Positions 57,288 through 62,026 are shown, numbered from the stretch's first letter. The stretch: 64,000 nt of DNA from Methanocorpusculum sp. (GCA_034932965.1 JAYFOG010000005.1:3296-67295); one strand, 5' to 3'. A program made the numbers and translations. The notes: generated from the sequence alone by a model not told the origin.

Positions 57288-57536
57288 GGAGGTTCTCCGC
57301 CGAAACGTGATCCGGGTTTATCTCCCATTTACTTCCCGGCTCCGTTTTCCTGCCCGGATCTGAAAACCAGACCGGCTTTTCAATCAAAACGCCCGGCCGC
57401 GTTCTCTTCTACGATACACAAGTATATATCCCTGTGAGGCGTATAAAGAGTCGCAGTTATCTGTGGGAAATATCAGTAAGACTTTTTTGTCTCATTGTTT
57501 TTTTCGTGAGCATTATTGCTCAAAGGAAATCCTATC

Positions 57537-57719
57537 ATGGAAAGAAGAAATAATTTTGGCGCACCACGCCAGTTTAACGACGGCCCACGCGAAATGACCA
57601 AAACAGTCTGCTCAGACTGTGGAAAAGAATGTGAAGTGCCGTTCAAGCCAACAGAAGGCAGACCAGTCTACTGTCAGGAATGCCTTCCAAAACACCGGAC
57701 CCCACGGAACCGGTTCTAA
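57537..57719 (+). CDS. CxxC-x17-CxxC small zinc-finger protein
   Basis: CSDCGKECEVPFKPTEGRPVYCQEC. Confidence 0.9.
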   Translation: MERRNNFGAPRQFNDGPREMTKTVCSDCGKECEVPFKPTEGRPVYCQECLPKHRTPRNRF

Positions 57720-57722
57720 TAC

Positions 57723-57757
57723 TGTTTAGACACTCTGTCTAAACACATCATTTTTTT
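57723..57757 (+). terminator. Hairpin plus T-run terminator
   Basis: TGTTTAGACA-CTC-TGTCTAAACA followed by T7. Confidence 0.7.
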
Positions 57758-57863: not shown

Positions 57864-58352
57864 ATGCAGATTCAGATATACGGAAAAGCGGTGTTAGCCA
57901 AACCCGCCGAGCCCGTTGATGCCATAACCCCTGAACTTTTAGCCATTCTTGACGAGATGATCCCGATGCTCAAAGAACACCGCGGAGTCGGACTTGCAGC
58001 TCCGCAGGTCGGGATAGGGAAACGATTTTTTGTGATGGATCCGGGAGACAAAGTCCGCAGAGTTATCAACCCGGAGATCCTGAAAACCGGCAATGCCTTT
58101 GCGGATATGGAGGAAGGCTGTCTTTCCGTTCCCGGTATCCATAAAAAAGTCCGCCGTCCCAGAAGGATCACGGTCAGATATACGAATGAAGCCGGAGAAC
58201 TGGTCGAAGAGGAGCTCAAAGATTATCCTGCCCGGGTCTTCATGCACGAATACGATCATCTTGAGGGGATCTTGTTTGTCGATAAGATCGCACCGATAGC
58301 AAAAAAGATGATCGCAAAGCAGCTTGAGGATCTGAGCCGAAAGGAGGCGTAA
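57864..58352 (+). CDS. def: Peptide deformylase
   Basis: GVGLAAPQVG, EGCLS, HEYDHLEG motifs, all intact. Confidence 0.96.
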   Translation: MQIQIYGKAVLAKPAEPVDAITPELLAILDEMIPMLKEHRGVGLAAPQVGIGKRFFVMDPGDKVRRVINPEILKTGNAFADMEEGCLSVPGIHKKVRRPRRITVRYTNEAGELVEEELKDYPARVFMHEYDHLEGILFVDKIAPIAKKMIAKQLEDLSRKEA

Positions 58353-59282
58353 ATGCGTGTCCTTTTTATGGGGACACCGGAGTATGCCCTCCCTTCTCTT
58401 CGTGCGGTTTTTGGAGAGCATGAGATCGTCGGGATCCTGACCCGGGCAGATAAACCGAACCGGAGAGGAAATAAGATCGAGTTCTCGCCGGTGAAGATGT
58501 TCGCCCTCGAACACGGGATCCCGGTGTTTCAGCCGGAGGATATGAAGGATCCGGCTCTGTTTGAACAGCTGAAGGCTCTTTCCCCGGATATTTCGGTCGT
58601 TGTGGCATTCGGGATGATGATCCCGGATGCGATCATCGATCTCCCGAAACACAATACGATAAATCTGCACGGGTCGCTTCTGCCGAAGTACCGGGGGGCT
58701 GCTCCGATGCAGTATTCCGTTTTGAACGGGGACCCGGAGACCGGGGTCTCGATCATGTATGTGGCTTCGCGTCTGGATGCGGGTGATGTGATCCTGAGAA
58801 AATCGATCCCTCTGGGCGAAAACGAAACTTACGGCGAGGTGCATGACCGTCTGGCAGAGCTCGGGGCGGAAGCGCTTGTCGAGGCGCTTGGTCTGATCGC
58901 ATCGGGAGAGGTGACCAAAACTCCTCAGGATGAGGCGATGGTGACCGTTGCTCCGTCTATTTCGAAAGAGGAGTGTGTGATCGACTGGTCTTTGCCGGCG
59001 GCCGAGGTCCATAACAGGATCCGCGGGCTTTCCCCGATCCCCGGAGCAAACACCCGGCTTCCTGACGGCAAGCTTCTGAAGATCTACCGGTCAGAGAAGG
59101 TGCCGGGGGATTATGCCGGCGTTCCCGGGGAGATCGTCGATCTGATCAAAAAGAAGGGGCCGGTGGTGATGACGGGGAAAGGAGCGGTCTGCATACTTTC
59201 AGCAAAACCCGAAGGAAAACGCGAGATGCCGGGCTTTGAGATCGTGAACGGTCATTATCTGAATGTCGGCGACCGGCTCTGA
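58353..59282 (+). CDS. fmt: Methionyl-tRNA formyltransferase
   Basis: FMGTPE, DKPNRRG loop, INLHGSLLPKYRGAAP, LDAGD; C-terminal tRNA-binding domain present. Confidence 0.94.
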   Translation: MRVLFMGTPEYALPSLRAVFGEHEIVGILTRADKPNRRGNKIEFSPVKMFALEHGIPVFQPEDMKDPALFEQLKALSPDISVVVAFGMMIPDAIIDLPKHNTINLHGSLLPKYRGAAPMQYSVLNGDPETGVSIMYVASRLDAGDVILRKSIPLGENETYGEVHDRLAELGAEALVEALGLIASGEVTKTPQDEAMVTVAPSISKEECVIDWSLPAAEVHNRIRGLSPIPGANTRLPDGKLLKIYRSEKVPGDYAGVPGEIVDLIKKKGPVVMTGKGAVCILSAKPEGKREMPGFEIVNGHYLNVGDRL

Positions 59283-59305
59283 TCCGGTTCTTTTTTTTTG
59301 AGACC

Positions 59306-59530
59306 GCACTGCGTAATGCCTATGAAAAAAGAACCCCGTGTTGGGGGTATCCAGCTCGCAAGCCCGCCCCTACGGGTCGGCCCGCCTCGGCTAAGGTCGT
59401 CCGCTTTCAGCGTCCATCCCGTTCATCACACGAAAACACGAAAAAAATAATATCACTTGGGTGTCACAACTATCCCACCCTCTCCTTCCCCCACACGAAA
59501 TATGCAAAAGTCAACGAAATGCACGAAAAG
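59306..59530. repeat. Composite repeat cluster at the island boundary
   Basis: CACTGCGTAATGCCTA, nested hairpins at 59352-59394, a 28-bp motif shared with 11320, and CACGAAA units. Confidence 0.65.
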
Positions 59531-59609: not shown

Positions 59610-60347
59610 CTAATTTTTTGGATCTATATCAACAATGATAGTTGGTACTATAAGATTATTCTCTTCAAATGTACTTTTTATGGTAATAATCTCGCAATTT
59701 AAGTTATCAACAAGTGATTTTGATATATTTATATCATCGACATAAATGATTATGTTAGGTTTATGATAAATCAAATCTTTGATATTCATGTGTGCTTTCC
59801 ATATTTCATTTGACTCATCCCCTAATTCTAATTTGATTATATCATATACGGCACTAGGACATCTTTGACGCGTAATATCACATGCATCCATCAAACGAAA
59901 TATGGCACAAATCATTCTTAGTCGAACGTTATCACATTCGTCTGGAACATCTATAAGAGAATAACTTTTCCTATGAGCTAATATTATATGCTTTAAACAA
60001 AATACGTACTTTTCAGGAAATGGGTCTAATAACTTAGATTTTTGCATGAGTTTAATTGATGCCGATGCATGGTCCTCACGACTAATAATACAACCTATAT
60101 CATGAACCCATGCGGCAAGATATAACAATAAACCTTCATCCTGATTTAATATTATACCCCACGCCCCAAGAAAGAGATTAATATTTTTATTGATAATCCT
60201 TAGAGTGTGATCAACACCATGTGATGAATATTCTGGGAGTTTCCTGGGAATGAATGTCAAAAATTGAGTTGAATAATTATCAAAAGCATCGATTAGATAT
60301 TTTGTATCTGATGAGTATTCAACAAAAATATAATTGGGGATTTCCAT
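59610..60347 (-). CDS. HD-domain phosphohydrolase (HD-CE-like)
   Basis: YSSHGVDHTLRI..AAWVHDIG..EDH..LAH..FRLMDACD metal-binding pattern. Very AT-rich. Confidence 0.8.
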   Translation of the reverse strand: MEIPNYIFVEYSSDTKYLIDAFDNYSTQFLTFIPRKLPEYSSHGVDHTLRIINKNINLFLGAWGIILNQDEGLLLYLAAWVHDIGCIISREDHASASIKLMQKSKLLDPFPEKYVFCLKHIILAHRKSYSLIDVPDECDNVRLRMICAIFRLMDACDITRQRCPSAVYDIIKLELGDESNEIWKAHMNIKDLIYHKPNIIIYVDDINISKSLVDNLNCEIITIKSTFEENNLIVPTIIVDIDPKN

Positions 60348-60372
60348 TTTAGTTCAATATTATATAAATTAT

Positions 60373-60663
60373 TTAATCTTTCCAATAATGTTCATACAGA
60401 TCTTTTATTCTGCTTATGTGCTCATTACTTATTTGGAACAGTCTTCCAGCACGTCCCGTATCAGTGGGACCATATTCCCCTCTGATGATTCCCCAATCGA
60501 AAAGTGTATCTATAGCGTTAGAGATGGTATTTTTACTTACTTTACCATCTAATCGTTCCACCAATCTAGTGAACCAAATGGATTCTCCAAGAGATTCCGC
60601 TTTGTAGATTTCACATGCCACTTTAAACTCATTTGAAAGTGGATTTTTGTGTGCTTCGGTCAA
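60373..60663 (-). CDS. Winged-helix DNA-binding protein
   Basis: FTRLVERLDGKVSKNTISNAIDTLFDWGII plus wing GRAGRLFQIS. TTG start with GAGGAG upstream. Confidence 0.75.
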   Translation of the reverse strand: MTEAHKNPLSNEFKVACEIYKAESLGESIWFTRLVERLDGKVSKNTISNAIDTLFDWGIIRGEYGPTDTGRAGRLFQISNEHISRIKDLYEHYWKD

Positions 60664-60889
60664 TCTGCTTCAACTCCTCTCTGACATTAAATATAATTTA
60701 TGATATGATAAATCTTTTTCTTTGAGACTAACTCTCAAATTTTGACTATTATAGTTATACTTTATACATCATATACTTATTCTATGATTGACTCTCATTT
60801 TATTAAGTGTATAAACCAGGGTATCTCACCAGATCCTTAAATATCAAAACGATAACATAATCATAAATTAATTAAAATGTAATTAATTC

Positions 60890-62026
60890 ATGGCAGAATC
60901 TGATGAAGATATTATTGTTGATATGAAACATTATTTTTCTGAGGCATATGCCTTAGATTTCGAGCCATATTCCAAACACGTTAATAATATACTGGATCAT
61001 TTAATCAAATCAGAGATTCTAAATTATAAAAATTCGGATGTATTAGTAATCGGTAGAAAAGGAGTGAGTCTTTTTCAACCATATATTAAGACGGTTAATA
61101 GAGAGAACAATTTACAGGGAATTTTTACTATTCAATTATTTTCCCACTCAAAACATCCCATTATAAAAATGGTACAACCTCATCGATATAGTGATTTTAA
61201 GCCACTTAAACAAATAGAACGCATAAGGAAAAGATTTTACGGGAAGGTTATATTATTAACCGACGCAATCAATTCAGGAAATGAAATATCAGAGGTCATA
61301 AAAACAATTGATCCCAAAAATATCTCTAAAATATGTGGTTATCTTGCAAATAAAGATCGTCTTTCTGAATTACAAAAAAAATATCCTCGCATACAATTTT
61401 CATTTATTAAAATAGTAAACAAAGAGGAGTATACCTTAGAACAAGATAGATTGCAACTTATATATCAGAGTCGATTGATCCCAATCGATGGGGAACACCC
61501 ATATCAGATATATTCATTAAAATATCAATTAAGCCCAGAAGATCTTGTCAATCACATGGATAATATTTTTAGTAAATTTAAATTAGCAGAGACAAATCTA
61601 AAAAAAGATGAACTACTTGTCCCAAACATCTCTAGTTATACCATTAATTTAGATTACAATATATTATGTCAGGAAAATCCAGAATTAATACAACAAGTAT
61701 ATGATATTGAAAGACTGCAAGTAAGATTTAAAATTGATCCTAAAGAATCTAAATTAAGAATAATGGCACTTGCTCTTGTAAATAATACAGATATTGATAT
61801 CAATAAGCAATGTAACATTGAATATAAAACATGTGGAATAAATATCCTCAAAAAAATGTGTGAAACGATTTCTATCCCACACCCAATGAAAGATAAACCT
61901 CAAGAAAAAATTTGTCCCCTCTGTATCGATTTAAATATTTCAAATTTCATTATTTTCTATGCTGAAAAAGAACTGTTCAAAATATTAGAATCAAATGGGG
62001 TTAAGATTGATAAAATGGAAATTTAA
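60890..62026 (+). CDS. Phosphoribosyltransferase-like protein with unknown C-terminal domain
   Basis: VLVIGRKG and GKVILLTDAINSGNEI (degenerate PRPP-binding loop); Cys-rich C-terminus (CPLC). Confidence 0.6.
   Translation: MAESDEDIIVDMKHYFSEAYALDFEPYSKHVNNILDHLIKSEILNYKNSDVLVIGRKGVSLFQPYIKTVNRENNLQGIFTIQLFSHSKHPIIKMVQPHRYSDFKPLKQIERIRKRFYGKVILLTDAINSGNEISEVIKTIDPKNISKICGYLANKDRLSELQKKYPRIQFSFIKIVNKEEYTLEQDRLQLIYQSRLIPIDGEHPYQIYSLKYQLSPEDLVNHMDNIFSKFKLAETNLKKDELLVPNISSYTINLDYNILCQENPELIQQVYDIERLQVRFKIDPKESKLRIMALALVNNTDIDINKQCNIEYKTCGINILKKMCETISIPHPMKDKPQEKICPLCIDLNISNFIIFYAEKELFKILESNGVKIDKMEI

What the first reader, a model, noticed from the sequence alone, without database searches (positions are those of the whole stretch)
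57864..59282. Intact bacterial-type def-fmt operon in an archaeon
Seen: adjacent def and fmt (fmt starts 1 bp after the def stop) with all catalytic motifs, the Fmt tRNA-binding C-domain and host-like base composition. Known: archaea initiate translation with unformylated Met-tRNAi; Fmt uses 10-formyl-THF and recognises an unpaired 1:72 position, whereas methanogens mainly use H4MPT and archaeal tRNAi has A1-U72. Inference: an old transfer that is still maintained. Options are real N-formylation in this lineage, a repurposed donor or substrate, or an addiction-like pair in which Fmt is harmful without Def. It abuts the defence-like island.
Basis: partly seen in the sequence, partly recalled or inferred. 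Interest (0 to 1): 0.75.

Follow-up and report, generated by a model that had tools for sequence, protein, structure and literature searches.

The report
Bacterial formyl-methionine system in a methanogen
A whole genus of methane-producing archaea (Methanocorpusculum) has kept, under strong selection, the bacterial gene pair that adds and removes a formyl group on the first methionine of proteins, although textbooks say archaea never do this.

Summary
The organism is a Methanocorpusculum.

fmt is in 42 of 44 species genomes of the genus, 0 of 9 in the sister genus, and in no other lineage among 401 genomes of the phylum. Fmt and Def trees both place the archaeal genes beside a Fusobacteriota-like clade, indicating one old transfer. 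Codon usage is fully host-like. dN/dS is 0.08-0.11, equal to the neighbouring IleRS.

New here:
- A second, diverged def paralogue (motif 2 EGSPC).
- Formate-THF ligase gained and FolD lost on the same branch, with PurN and PurH present, so a 10-formyl-THF supply is plausible.
- The native initiator tRNA is unchanged: A1-U72, but with G2-C71, C3-G70, G4-C69, A73 and G11:C24.
- The only radical lineage-specific change at a conserved Fmt site is Gly to Arg/Lys next to Arg42, in the loop that reads the 1:72 pair.

Best reading (about 0.6): the native archaeal Met-tRNAi is really formylated and the formyl group is then removed. No direct biochemical evidence exists. No paper in the searched library mentions it.

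The parts
57723..57757 (+). Terminator-like hairpin (10 pairs) and T-run after the upstream zf-CxxC gene. It marks the 5' limit of the def-fmt unit.
   Evidence: Functional role is inferred.
57864..58352 (+). def (Def1): canonical peptide deformylase, 162 aa.
   Evidence: PF01327 163.9 bits; TIGR00079 137.5 bits against a cut-off of 103.95. Motifs GVGLAAPQ, EGCLS and HEYDH. Best solved match is 1LME, at 149.7 bits. dN/dS 0.083.
58343..58347 (+). GGAGG Shine-Dalgarno-like element inside the 3' end of def, 5 nt before the fmt ATG. Fits translational coupling.
   Evidence: sequence. Function is inferred.
58353..59282 (+). fmt: methionyl-tRNA formyltransferase, 309 aa, with catalytic N-domain, insertion loop and C-terminal tRNA-binding domain.
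   Evidence: TIGR00460 274.3 bits against a cut-off of 201.5; PF00551 plus PF02911. Aligns over residues 1-300 with E. coli Fmt 1FMT/2FMT, E = 2e-68. dN/dS about 0.11.
58461..58466 (+). Codons for Fmt R37-R38, equivalent to E. coli Gly41-Arg42 in the loop that reads the acceptor stem. Position 37 is Arg or Lys in 19 of 20 Methanocorpusculum, but Gly in about 90% of bacteria.
59271..59299 (+). Terminator-like hairpin overlapping the fmt stop codon, followed by a T9 run. It marks the 3' limit of the two-gene unit.
   Evidence: Function is inferred.

Best explanation
def-fmt is a working bacterial formylation/deformylation module, acquired once by the ancestor of Methanocorpusculum from a Fusobacteriota-like bacterium and now part of the archaeal core genome.

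Proposed mechanism:
1. Formate-THF ligase (Fhs), gained on the same branch while FolD was lost, makes 10-formyl-THF from formate. That pool also feeds PurN and PurH.
2. Fmt transfers the formyl group to methionine on the native archaeal initiator tRNA. That tRNA has an A1-U72 pair but keeps G2-C71, C3-G70, G4-C69, A73 and a purine11:pyrimidine24 pair.
3. fMet-tRNAi is used by the unchanged archaeal initiation machinery (aIF2, aIF5B). No bacterial IF2 is present.
4. Def1, possibly helped by the diverged paralogue Def2, removes the formyl group so that methionine aminopeptidase can act.

The Gly-to-Arg/Lys change beside the invariant Arg42-equivalent in the Fmt insertion loop is read as an adaptation to the base-paired 1:72 position.

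Shown here: gene integrity, origin, fixation, selection, composition, the tRNA determinants, the presence of folate-dependent enzymes, and cover by RNA-library contigs.
Inferred: every biochemical step.
For: Family membership and motifs.

Distribution: fmt is in 42 of 44 genus genomes, 0 of 9 in the sister genus, and 0 of 16 in five other families. It is the only lineage over the cut-off in 401 genomes of the phylum. Def1 lies next to fmt throughout.

Origin: Methanocorpusculum Fmt is monophyletic (99). It is sister (100) to a clade with Psychrilyobacter and Leptotrichiaceae that carries priA-def-fmt-rex-folD. The Def tree agrees (98).

Selection: median dN/dS is 0.083 for def1, 0.109 for fmt and 0.080 for def2, with dS saturated across the deeper splits. 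In the same species pairs IleRS is 0.083, AFOR 0.096 and ThiF 0.122.

Composition is ameliorated.

Substrate: the tRNAi is A1-U72, G2-C71, C3-G70, G4-C69, A73 and G11:C24, and is 100% identical to the tRNAi of fmt-less relatives. Reviews list those elements as Fmt determinants. One states that E. coli FMT efficiently formylates yeast cytosolic Met-tRNAi.

Enzyme change: 69 columns are at least 80% conserved in bacteria. Among them, the only radical, lineage-specific change is G to R/K at the E. coli Gly41 position. It is R or K in 19 of 20 Methanocorpusculum, 0 of 8 in the sister clade, 0 of 78 in one bacterial set and 2 of 149 in another.

Donor: Fhs is in 19 of 24 genus genomes and 0 of 21 others. 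FolD shows the reverse pattern. PurN, PurH and SHMT are present.

Expression: zero-mismatch contigs from four metatranscriptome runs cover both genes and bridge the junction. Terminator-like elements frame the two genes.
Against: - There is no direct evidence of fMet-tRNAi or of formylated N-termini in any archaeon.
- The major Fmt determinant, an unpaired 1:72, is absent. Two reviews take this to preclude formylation in archaea.
- Acceptance of fMet-tRNAi by aIF2, its stability against archaeal peptidyl-tRNA hydrolase, and docking of a bacterial PDF on an archaeal ribosome are all untested.
- Classical FolC was not found in 5 complete genomes, so the nature of the folate pool is inferred.
- The RNA evidence comes from one study and from contigs only, and DNA carry-over is not excluded.
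- The functional meaning of Arg/Lys at position 41 rests on my recollection of Ramesh et al. 1997, which I could not read here.
- The loop change is a single evolutionary event.
Confidence: 0.6

Rival explanations
1. Fmt and Def are active enzymes kept for a different job. For example, Fmt might formylate another aminoacyl-tRNA or a small molecule, or use a non-folate donor such as a methanopterin derivative. Def might deformylate a product unrelated to translation initiation.
For: The 1:72 mismatch is missing. Methanogens are rich in H4MPT. Def2 has a rebuilt motif 2 (EGSPC in 11 of 11), which suggests a substrate or mechanism shift in part of the system. FolC was not found.
Against: Fmt scores as an Fmt equivalog, not as any other formyltransferase. 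It keeps the tRNA-binding C-domain and the invariant Arg42-equivalent. All minor tRNA determinants are on tRNAi, whereas the other two CAU tRNAs have G1-C72. Fhs, PurN and PurH indicate a formyl-THF pool. The tight def-fmt coupling is kept in every species.
Confidence: 0.17
2. Only Def matters. The deformylases salvage or detoxify N-formyl peptides released by neighbouring bacteria, and fmt is retained as a passenger of the operon with little or no activity on archaeal tRNA.
For: There are two def copies and one fmt. Methanocorpusculum lives in bacteria-rich habitats (names and sources).
Against: fmt has dN/dS of about 0.11, as low as native genes, with every catalytic residue kept in 20 of 20 species. 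A passenger gene would have decayed over a divergence at which dS is saturated. PDFs act on nascent chains rather than free peptides (established knowledge).
Confidence: 0.08
3. It is a selfish, addiction-like pair: Fmt is harmful without Def, so the pair persists without benefit to the host.
For: Formylation without deformylation blocks N-terminal maturation (established for bacteria). The pair abuts a variable AT-rich island.
Against: Losing fmt first would remove any dependence, yet fmt is under strong purifying selection in 42 of 44 species. There are no mobility genes and no foreign composition. The upstream synteny is the same in complete genomes, and the island downstream is specific to this genome.
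Confidence: 0.03
4. It is an assembly or binning artefact: bacterial DNA joined to an archaeal contig.
For: The genome is a 102-contig MAG at 85.6% completeness.
Against: The same arrangement, IleRS ... zf-CxxC-def-fmt, occurs in six single-contig genomes of 1.6-1.8 Mb and in named isolates such as M. petauri and M. vombati. Codon usage is host-like.
Confidence: 0.01

Closest known systems
Bacterial def-fmt operon (E. coli def-fmt-rsmB; Fusobacteriota priA-def-fmt-rex-folD)
   Same: Same two enzyme families at equivalog level, the same gene order, abutting genes, the same catalytic residues, the insertion loop with Arg42, and the C-terminal tRNA-binding domain.
   Different: - The host is an archaeon with aIF2/aIF5B and no bacterial IF2.
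- The substrate tRNA has a Watson-Crick A1-U72 pair rather than a C1xA72 mismatch.
- Loop position 41 is Arg or Lys instead of Gly.
- There are no priA, rex, folD or rsmB neighbours.
- The formyl donor is supplied through Fhs, not FolD.
Cytosolic fMet initiation in yeast (E. coli FMT expressed in yeast, or stress-relocalised Fmt1), as reviewed in PMC13234167
   Same: A formyltransferase acts on an A1-U72 eukaryote/archaeon-type initiator tRNA, and fMet-tRNAi is used by an e/aIF2-type machinery.
   Different: In yeast this is conditional or engineered, and no cytosolic PDF exists. Here the pair is a fixed, constitutive-looking operon with one or two deformylases. The archaeal case is untested biochemically.
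Type 3 PDFs reported in Archaea and protists (PMC12690207)
   Same: They are PDF homologues in archaea, and Def2 shares the feature of an altered motif 2.
   Different: Def1 has fully canonical motifs and is linked to a real fmt. Type 3 PDFs are described as carrying substitutions in motifs I and II and having low or no activity, and they are not reported with an Fmt partner. I did not compare sequences with type 3 PDFs directly.
Accessory (second) PDFs of bacteria (PMC12690207)
   Same: There is a second def copy at another locus, which arose by duplication.
   Different: Def2 is not on a mobile element. It sits beside Ftr in native context. Its metal-ligand Cys is shifted by two residues in 11 of 11 species.

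Membership tests
Methionyl-tRNA formyltransferase (TIGR00460 equivalog) | Whole-protein score above the curated cut-off, and better than the sister formyltransferase families | tested here: met
   274.3 bits against a cut-off of 201.5. ArnA scores 156 (cut-off 777), PRK06988 154 (316) and PurN 63 (150).
Methionyl-tRNA formyltransferase (TIGR00460 equivalog) | Catalytic Asn108, His110 and Asp146 (E. coli numbering) and the SLLP folate motif | tested here: met
   N104, H106 and D142 align with 1FMT. They are invariant in alignment A1.
Methionyl-tRNA formyltransferase (TIGR00460 equivalog) | The 16-residue insertion loop with the conserved Arg42 that contacts the acceptor stem | tested here: met
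   The loop is present. The Arg42 equivalent (R38) is found in 20 of 20 Methanocorpusculum and in all 235 bacterial sequences examined.
Methionyl-tRNA formyltransferase (TIGR00460 equivalog) | C-terminal tRNA-binding domain | tested here: met
   PF02911, 75.8 bits, residues 203-301.
Methionyl-tRNA formyltransferase (TIGR00460 equivalog) | Formylates Met-tRNAi using 10-formyl-THF | not testable with these tools
   Only the substrate determinants and donor-pathway genes could be checked.
Peptide deformylase (TIGR00079 / PF01327): Def1 | Score above cut-off and the three metal/catalytic motifs G(V/I)GLAAxQ, EGCLS and HExxH | tested here: met
   137.5 bits against a cut-off of 103.95. GVGLAAPQ, EGCLS and HEYDH are present. 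EGCLS is found in 18 of 19 Def1 sequences.
Peptide deformylase (TIGR00079 / PF01327): Def2 (G000:C68:1131-1607, outside the window) | Score above the equivalog cut-off and a canonical motif 2 (EGCLS) | tested here: not met
   96.9 bits, below the 103.95 cut-off. Motif 2 is EGSPC in 11 of 11 species. Pfam PF01327 is met at 144.7 bits, and motifs 1 and 3 are kept. Def2 is therefore a PDF-fold paralogue, not a canonical PDF.
Complete bacterial-type formyl-Met initiation system | Initiator tRNA with an unpaired 1:72 | tested here: not met
   The tRNAi has A1-U72 in all 33 copies examined. No C1xA72 tRNA was found in the 85%-complete genome.
Complete bacterial-type formyl-Met initiation system | Minor Fmt determinants G2-C71, C3-G70, G4-C69, A73 and R11:Y24 on the initiator tRNA | tested here: met
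   All are present. The determinants are as listed in the papers read.
Complete bacterial-type formyl-Met initiation system | Bacterial IF2, which selects fMet-tRNA | tested here: not met
   Only aIF5B-like matches were found, at 134.9 bits against a cut-off of 424.4.
Complete bacterial-type formyl-Met initiation system | A source of 10-formyl-THF | tested here: inconclusive
   Fhs (896 bits), PurN, PurH and SHMT are present. FolD is absent and FolC was not found. The cofactor itself cannot be seen in sequence.

The most novel reading that the evidence does not exclude
Methanocorpusculum is the first archaeal lineage that starts protein synthesis with N-formyl-methionine. A bacterial Fmt/PDF cycle would then run on top of an otherwise purely archaeal initiation apparatus (A1-U72 tRNAi, aIF2, aIF5B). 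It would be fed by formate through a separately acquired formate-THF ligase. The Fmt recognition loop would have been re-tuned (Gly41 to Arg/Lys) to accept a base-paired 1:72 end, and a neofunctionalised second deformylase would accompany it.
Probability: 0.5. Interest if true: 0.85.

Novelty: new variant of a known kind. Interest (0 to 1): 0.77.

Why it matters
Absence of initiator formylation is treated as a domain-level character of Archaea. Reviews from 2020 to 2026 say so outright.

A culturable methanogen genus with a fixed, selected Fmt/PDF pair would give a natural experiment on three questions:
- whether formylation can work with e/aIF2-type initiation;
- what formylation is actually for, because here it was added to a system that worked without it;
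- how Fmt specificity adapts to a paired 1:72 end.

It also has a practical side. PDF inhibitors such as actinonin might act selectively on Methanocorpusculum, a common methanogen of animal guts and digesters. And fMet peptides from an archaeon could engage the formyl-peptide receptors of animal hosts.

Tried and rejected
- Chimeric contig: rejected, because synteny is the same in complete genomes.
- Sugar-nucleotide or ArnA-type formyltransferase: rejected by NCBIfam scores and the tree.
- Co-evolved initiator tRNA: rejected. The tRNAi is identical to that of fmt-less relatives.
- Co-acquired bacterial tRNAfMet or IF2: not found.
- Fhs acquired together with def-fmt: rejected. Its nearest relatives are Oscillospiraceae at 72-77%, a different donor.
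- Def2 as a separate acquisition: no outside relative is closer than Def1.
- Other archaea of the phylum with Fmt: none over the cut-off in 401 genomes. Four sub-threshold Fmt-like proteins (167-177 bits) were not followed up. Other archaeal phyla were not scanned.
- Verifying the G41R/G41K suppressor result of Ramesh et al. 1997: the paper and related ones are not held, and text searches found nothing. Only its title is confirmed.
- Empty-site comparison with the sister genus: the ThiF neighbourhood there is not syntenic enough to define an insertion point.
- RNA cover: parts of the stretch lacked contigs (57300-57447, 58854-59001), which proves nothing. No silent control stretch could be laid because only one call was allowed.
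- Sigma-70 promoter scan: at chance level and not relevant to archaea.
- No structure or complex prediction was run. The end-to-end alignment with 1FMT made it unnecessary.

Full report
OBSERVATION

The def stop TAA is followed directly by the fmt ATG, and a GGAGG lies 5 nt upstream inside def.

Def matches PF01327 (163.9 bits) and the NCBIfam equivalog TIGR00079 (137.5 bits, cut-off 103.95). Fmt matches PF00551 plus the C-terminal domain PF02911, and the equivalog TIGR00460 (274.3 bits, cut-off 201.5). It scores far below cut-off for ArnA, the PRK06988 formyltransferase, PurN and PurU.

Fmt aligns over residues 1-300 with E. coli Fmt (1FMT/2FMT, E = 2e-68). Asn108, His110 and Asp146, the SLLP motif and the 16-residue insertion loop are all kept. 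Def1 carries GVGLAAPQ, EGCLS and HEYDH, and its best solved relative is 1LME.

Terminator-like hairpins with T-runs lie just before def (57723-57757) and over the fmt stop (59271-59299), so the two genes are framed as one unit.

HOST AND DISTRIBUTION

Homologue names identify the organism as Methanocorpusculum. The window is contig C5 of a 1.56-Mb MAG at 85.6% completeness.

- Fmt over the cut-off is found in 42 of 44 species genomes of the genus. The two without it are 73% and 77% complete.
- It is found in 0 of 9 genomes of the sister genus of the same family and in 0 of 16 from five other families of Methanomicrobiales.
- In an even draw of 401 genomes of the phylum, only this genus is over the cut-off.
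- Def1 lies next to fmt wherever the locus is assembled.
- The order IleRS / (AFOR-ThiF-ThiS) / zf-CxxC / def / fmt recurs in six single-contig genomes, so the contig is not chimeric.
- The AT-rich HD/winged-helix/PRTase island downstream is specific to this genome and compositionally foreign. def and fmt are not: their codon-usage distance is at the 30th and 53rd percentile of host ORFs, against 99.7-100 for the island.

ORIGIN

The closest named relatives outside the genus are all bacterial, at 38-48% identity. The nearest metagenomic ones reach about 50%.

In the Fmt tree the Methanocorpusculum sequences form one clade (SH-aLRT 99). Its sister, with support 100, is a clade holding Psychrilyobacter, a Leptotrichiaceae MAG and unnamed metagenomic proteins. 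Those carry the bacterial context priA-def-fmt-rex-folD, with def and fmt abutting.

The Def tree agrees. Def1, a second archaeal paralogue Def2, and the same Fusobacteriota-like Defs form one clade (98). Def1 and Def2 are sisters (91), and Def2 sits on a long stem. No protein outside the lineage is closer to Def2 than Def1 is.

This indicates one transfer of def-fmt into the stem of the genus, followed by a duplication of def.

SELECTION

Median pairwise dN/dS (NG86, pairs with 0.05 < dS < 2) is 0.083 for def1, 0.109 for fmt and 0.080 for def2. dS is saturated across the deeper splits of the genus. In the same species pairs the native neighbours give 0.083 (IleRS), 0.096 (AFOR) and 0.122 (ThiF). 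The transferred genes are therefore as constrained as housekeeping genes.

(a) Formyl donor.
- Formate-THF ligase is present in 19 of 24 genus genomes, including all those at least 90% complete. It is in 0 of 16 other Methanomicrobiales and 0 of 5 sister-genus genomes.
- FolD shows the exact reverse: 0 of 24 against 16 of 16 and 5 of 5.
- The nearest outside relatives of Fhs are Oscillospiraceae at 72-77%, so it came from a different donor.
- PurN (251 bits) and PurH, both 10-formyl-THF users, are in this genome, and SHMT is in 5 of 5 complete genomes of the genus.
- A curated study already concluded that Methanomicrobiales with PurN should contain tetrahydrofolates (PMC3261824).
- Classical FolC was not found, so the exact cofactor remains an inference.

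(b) The tRNA.
- The genome has three CAU tRNAs. [quoted passage not shown]
- It is 100% identical to the tRNAi of fmt-less Methanomicrobiales of other families. All 33 copies examined share the acceptor-stem determinants.
- No bacterial-type tRNAfMet and no bacterial IF2 were found.
- Reviews list exactly those minor determinants plus Fmt Arg42. One states that E. coli FMT efficiently formylates yeast cytosolic Met-tRNAi. From my own knowledge, that yeast initiator is an A1-U72 tRNA.
- The only missing element is therefore the 1:72 mismatch, replaced here by the weakest Watson-Crick pair.

AN ENZYME-SIDE CHANGE

I scanned all 69 alignment columns that are at least 80% conserved in 220 bacterial Fmts. 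Only ten differ in Methanocorpusculum. Most are conservative swaps (F/Y, L/V/I, I/M) or indels, and one (Q to K at position 285) is shared with the sister clade.

The one radical, lineage-specific change is at window residue 37, the equivalent of E. coli Gly41. It lies directly before the invariant Arg42 in the loop that docks on the 1:72 end.
- Methanocorpusculum: Arg 14, Lys 5, Gln 1 of 20.
- Sister clade: 0 of 8 basic.
- Bacteria in the combined alignment: Gly 197 of 220.
- The 149 diverse representatives: Gly 138, Lys 2, Arg 0.

From memory, Ramesh et al. 1997 (PNAS 94:13524) isolated G41R in E. coli Fmt as a suppressor that restores formylation of initiator tRNA mutants with a base-paired 1:72. 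They also showed that G41K suppresses, whereas D, Q and L do not. I confirmed only the paper's title and could not read it. If the recollection is right, the archaeal enzymes carry precisely the change expected for an A1-U72 substrate. It is a single evolutionary event, so its weight comes from that prior biochemistry and not from the counts.

EXPRESSION

Four groundwater metatranscriptome runs from one study hold 42-52% of the sampled words. Their contigs match with zero differences over 57962-58556, which bridges the def/fmt junction, and over 58527-58795 and 59066-59500. This fits a shared transcript. However, these are contigs from one study, and DNA carry-over is not excluded.

LITERATURE

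[quoted passage not shown] Archaeal PDFs are known only as 'type 3' forms with degenerate motifs. No paper in the searched library contains both Methanocorpusculum and either deformylase or methionyl-tRNA formyltransferase. The genes are named automatically in public records.

INTERPRETATION

The gene-level facts are secure: real Fmt and PDF genes, one old transfer, fixed, ameliorated and strongly constrained.

The most economical function is the canonical one, acting on the native tRNAi. It fits the tRNA determinants, the donor pathway, the retained def-fmt coupling and the loop change. I put it at about 0.6, because every biochemical step is inferred and several compatibility questions are open (aIF2, Pth2, ribosome docking of PDF, folate identity).

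The rivals:
- A repurposed substrate or donor: 0.17.
- Def-only salvage with a passenger fmt: 0.08. Selection on fmt contradicts it.
- An addiction-like pair: 0.03. There is no mobility, and fmt loss would dissolve any dependence.
- An artefact: 0.01.

Def2, with its metal-ligand Cys shifted by two residues in 11 of 11 species and dN/dS of 0.08, looks neofunctionalised. Its role is unknown.

VERDICT

This is a known kind of system in an unexpected domain, with lineage-specific adaptations. It is directly testable in cultured strains.

Noticed in passing
G000:C68:1131-1607 (-), = L009:1131-1607; outside the window: A second deformylase paralogue (Def2) is present across the genus and sits beside the methanogenesis gene Ftr. 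Motif 2 is EGSPC instead of EGCLS in 11 of 11 species, so the Cys is shifted by two residues. dN/dS is 0.08, and it sits on a long stem branch after duplication from Def1.
   Followed up: partly
G000:C24:3133-4845 (-), = L010; outside the window: Formate-THF ligase was gained from an Oscillospiraceae-like donor (72-77% identity), and FolD was lost, on the same stem branch as the def-fmt gain. The sister genus and all other Methanomicrobiales searched have FolD and no Fhs.
   Followed up: partly
L147:1015-1089 (G022:C1:886514-886588): One complete genome of the genus has a second initiator-like tRNA(CAU) with U1-A72, G4-U69, C33 and the GGG/CCC anticodon stem, next to tRNA-Thr(UGU). It was not found in the other 40 genomes searched.
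   Followed up: no
window 59610-62026: The AT-rich HD / winged-helix / PRTase-like island (GC 0.28-0.38, codon usage at the 99.7th-100th percentile) begins 327 bp after fmt. It is absent from the same position in the other genomes examined. It is separate from def-fmt.
   Followed up: partly
G401:C1:1850044-1850892; G332:C1:359910-360728; G337:C8:108483-109298; G308:C11:105646-106482: Four other genomes of the phylum have Fmt-like proteins below the Fmt cut-off (167-177 bits against 201.5). They are probably other two-domain formyltransferases.
   Followed up: no
window 57516-57719: The small CxxC-x17-CxxC zinc-finger gene upstream of def is very conserved (92-97% aa identity across species where Fmt is 84-92%). 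One RNA contig covering it had depth 269, against about 10 for the def-fmt contigs, though it came from a slightly different strain (11 differences).
   Followed up: no
L099:9572-11504, L100:2714-4559, L101:2240-4197: The AFOR gene next to the locus gives two overlapping tblastn pieces in three complete genomes. This suggests a frameshift or split gene there.
   Followed up: no
G022:C1:516884-518868 and equivalents: SHMT (glyA) is directly followed by a Pterin_bind-domain gene in 5 of 5 complete genomes. This may bear on which pterin or folate the genus uses.
   Followed up: no
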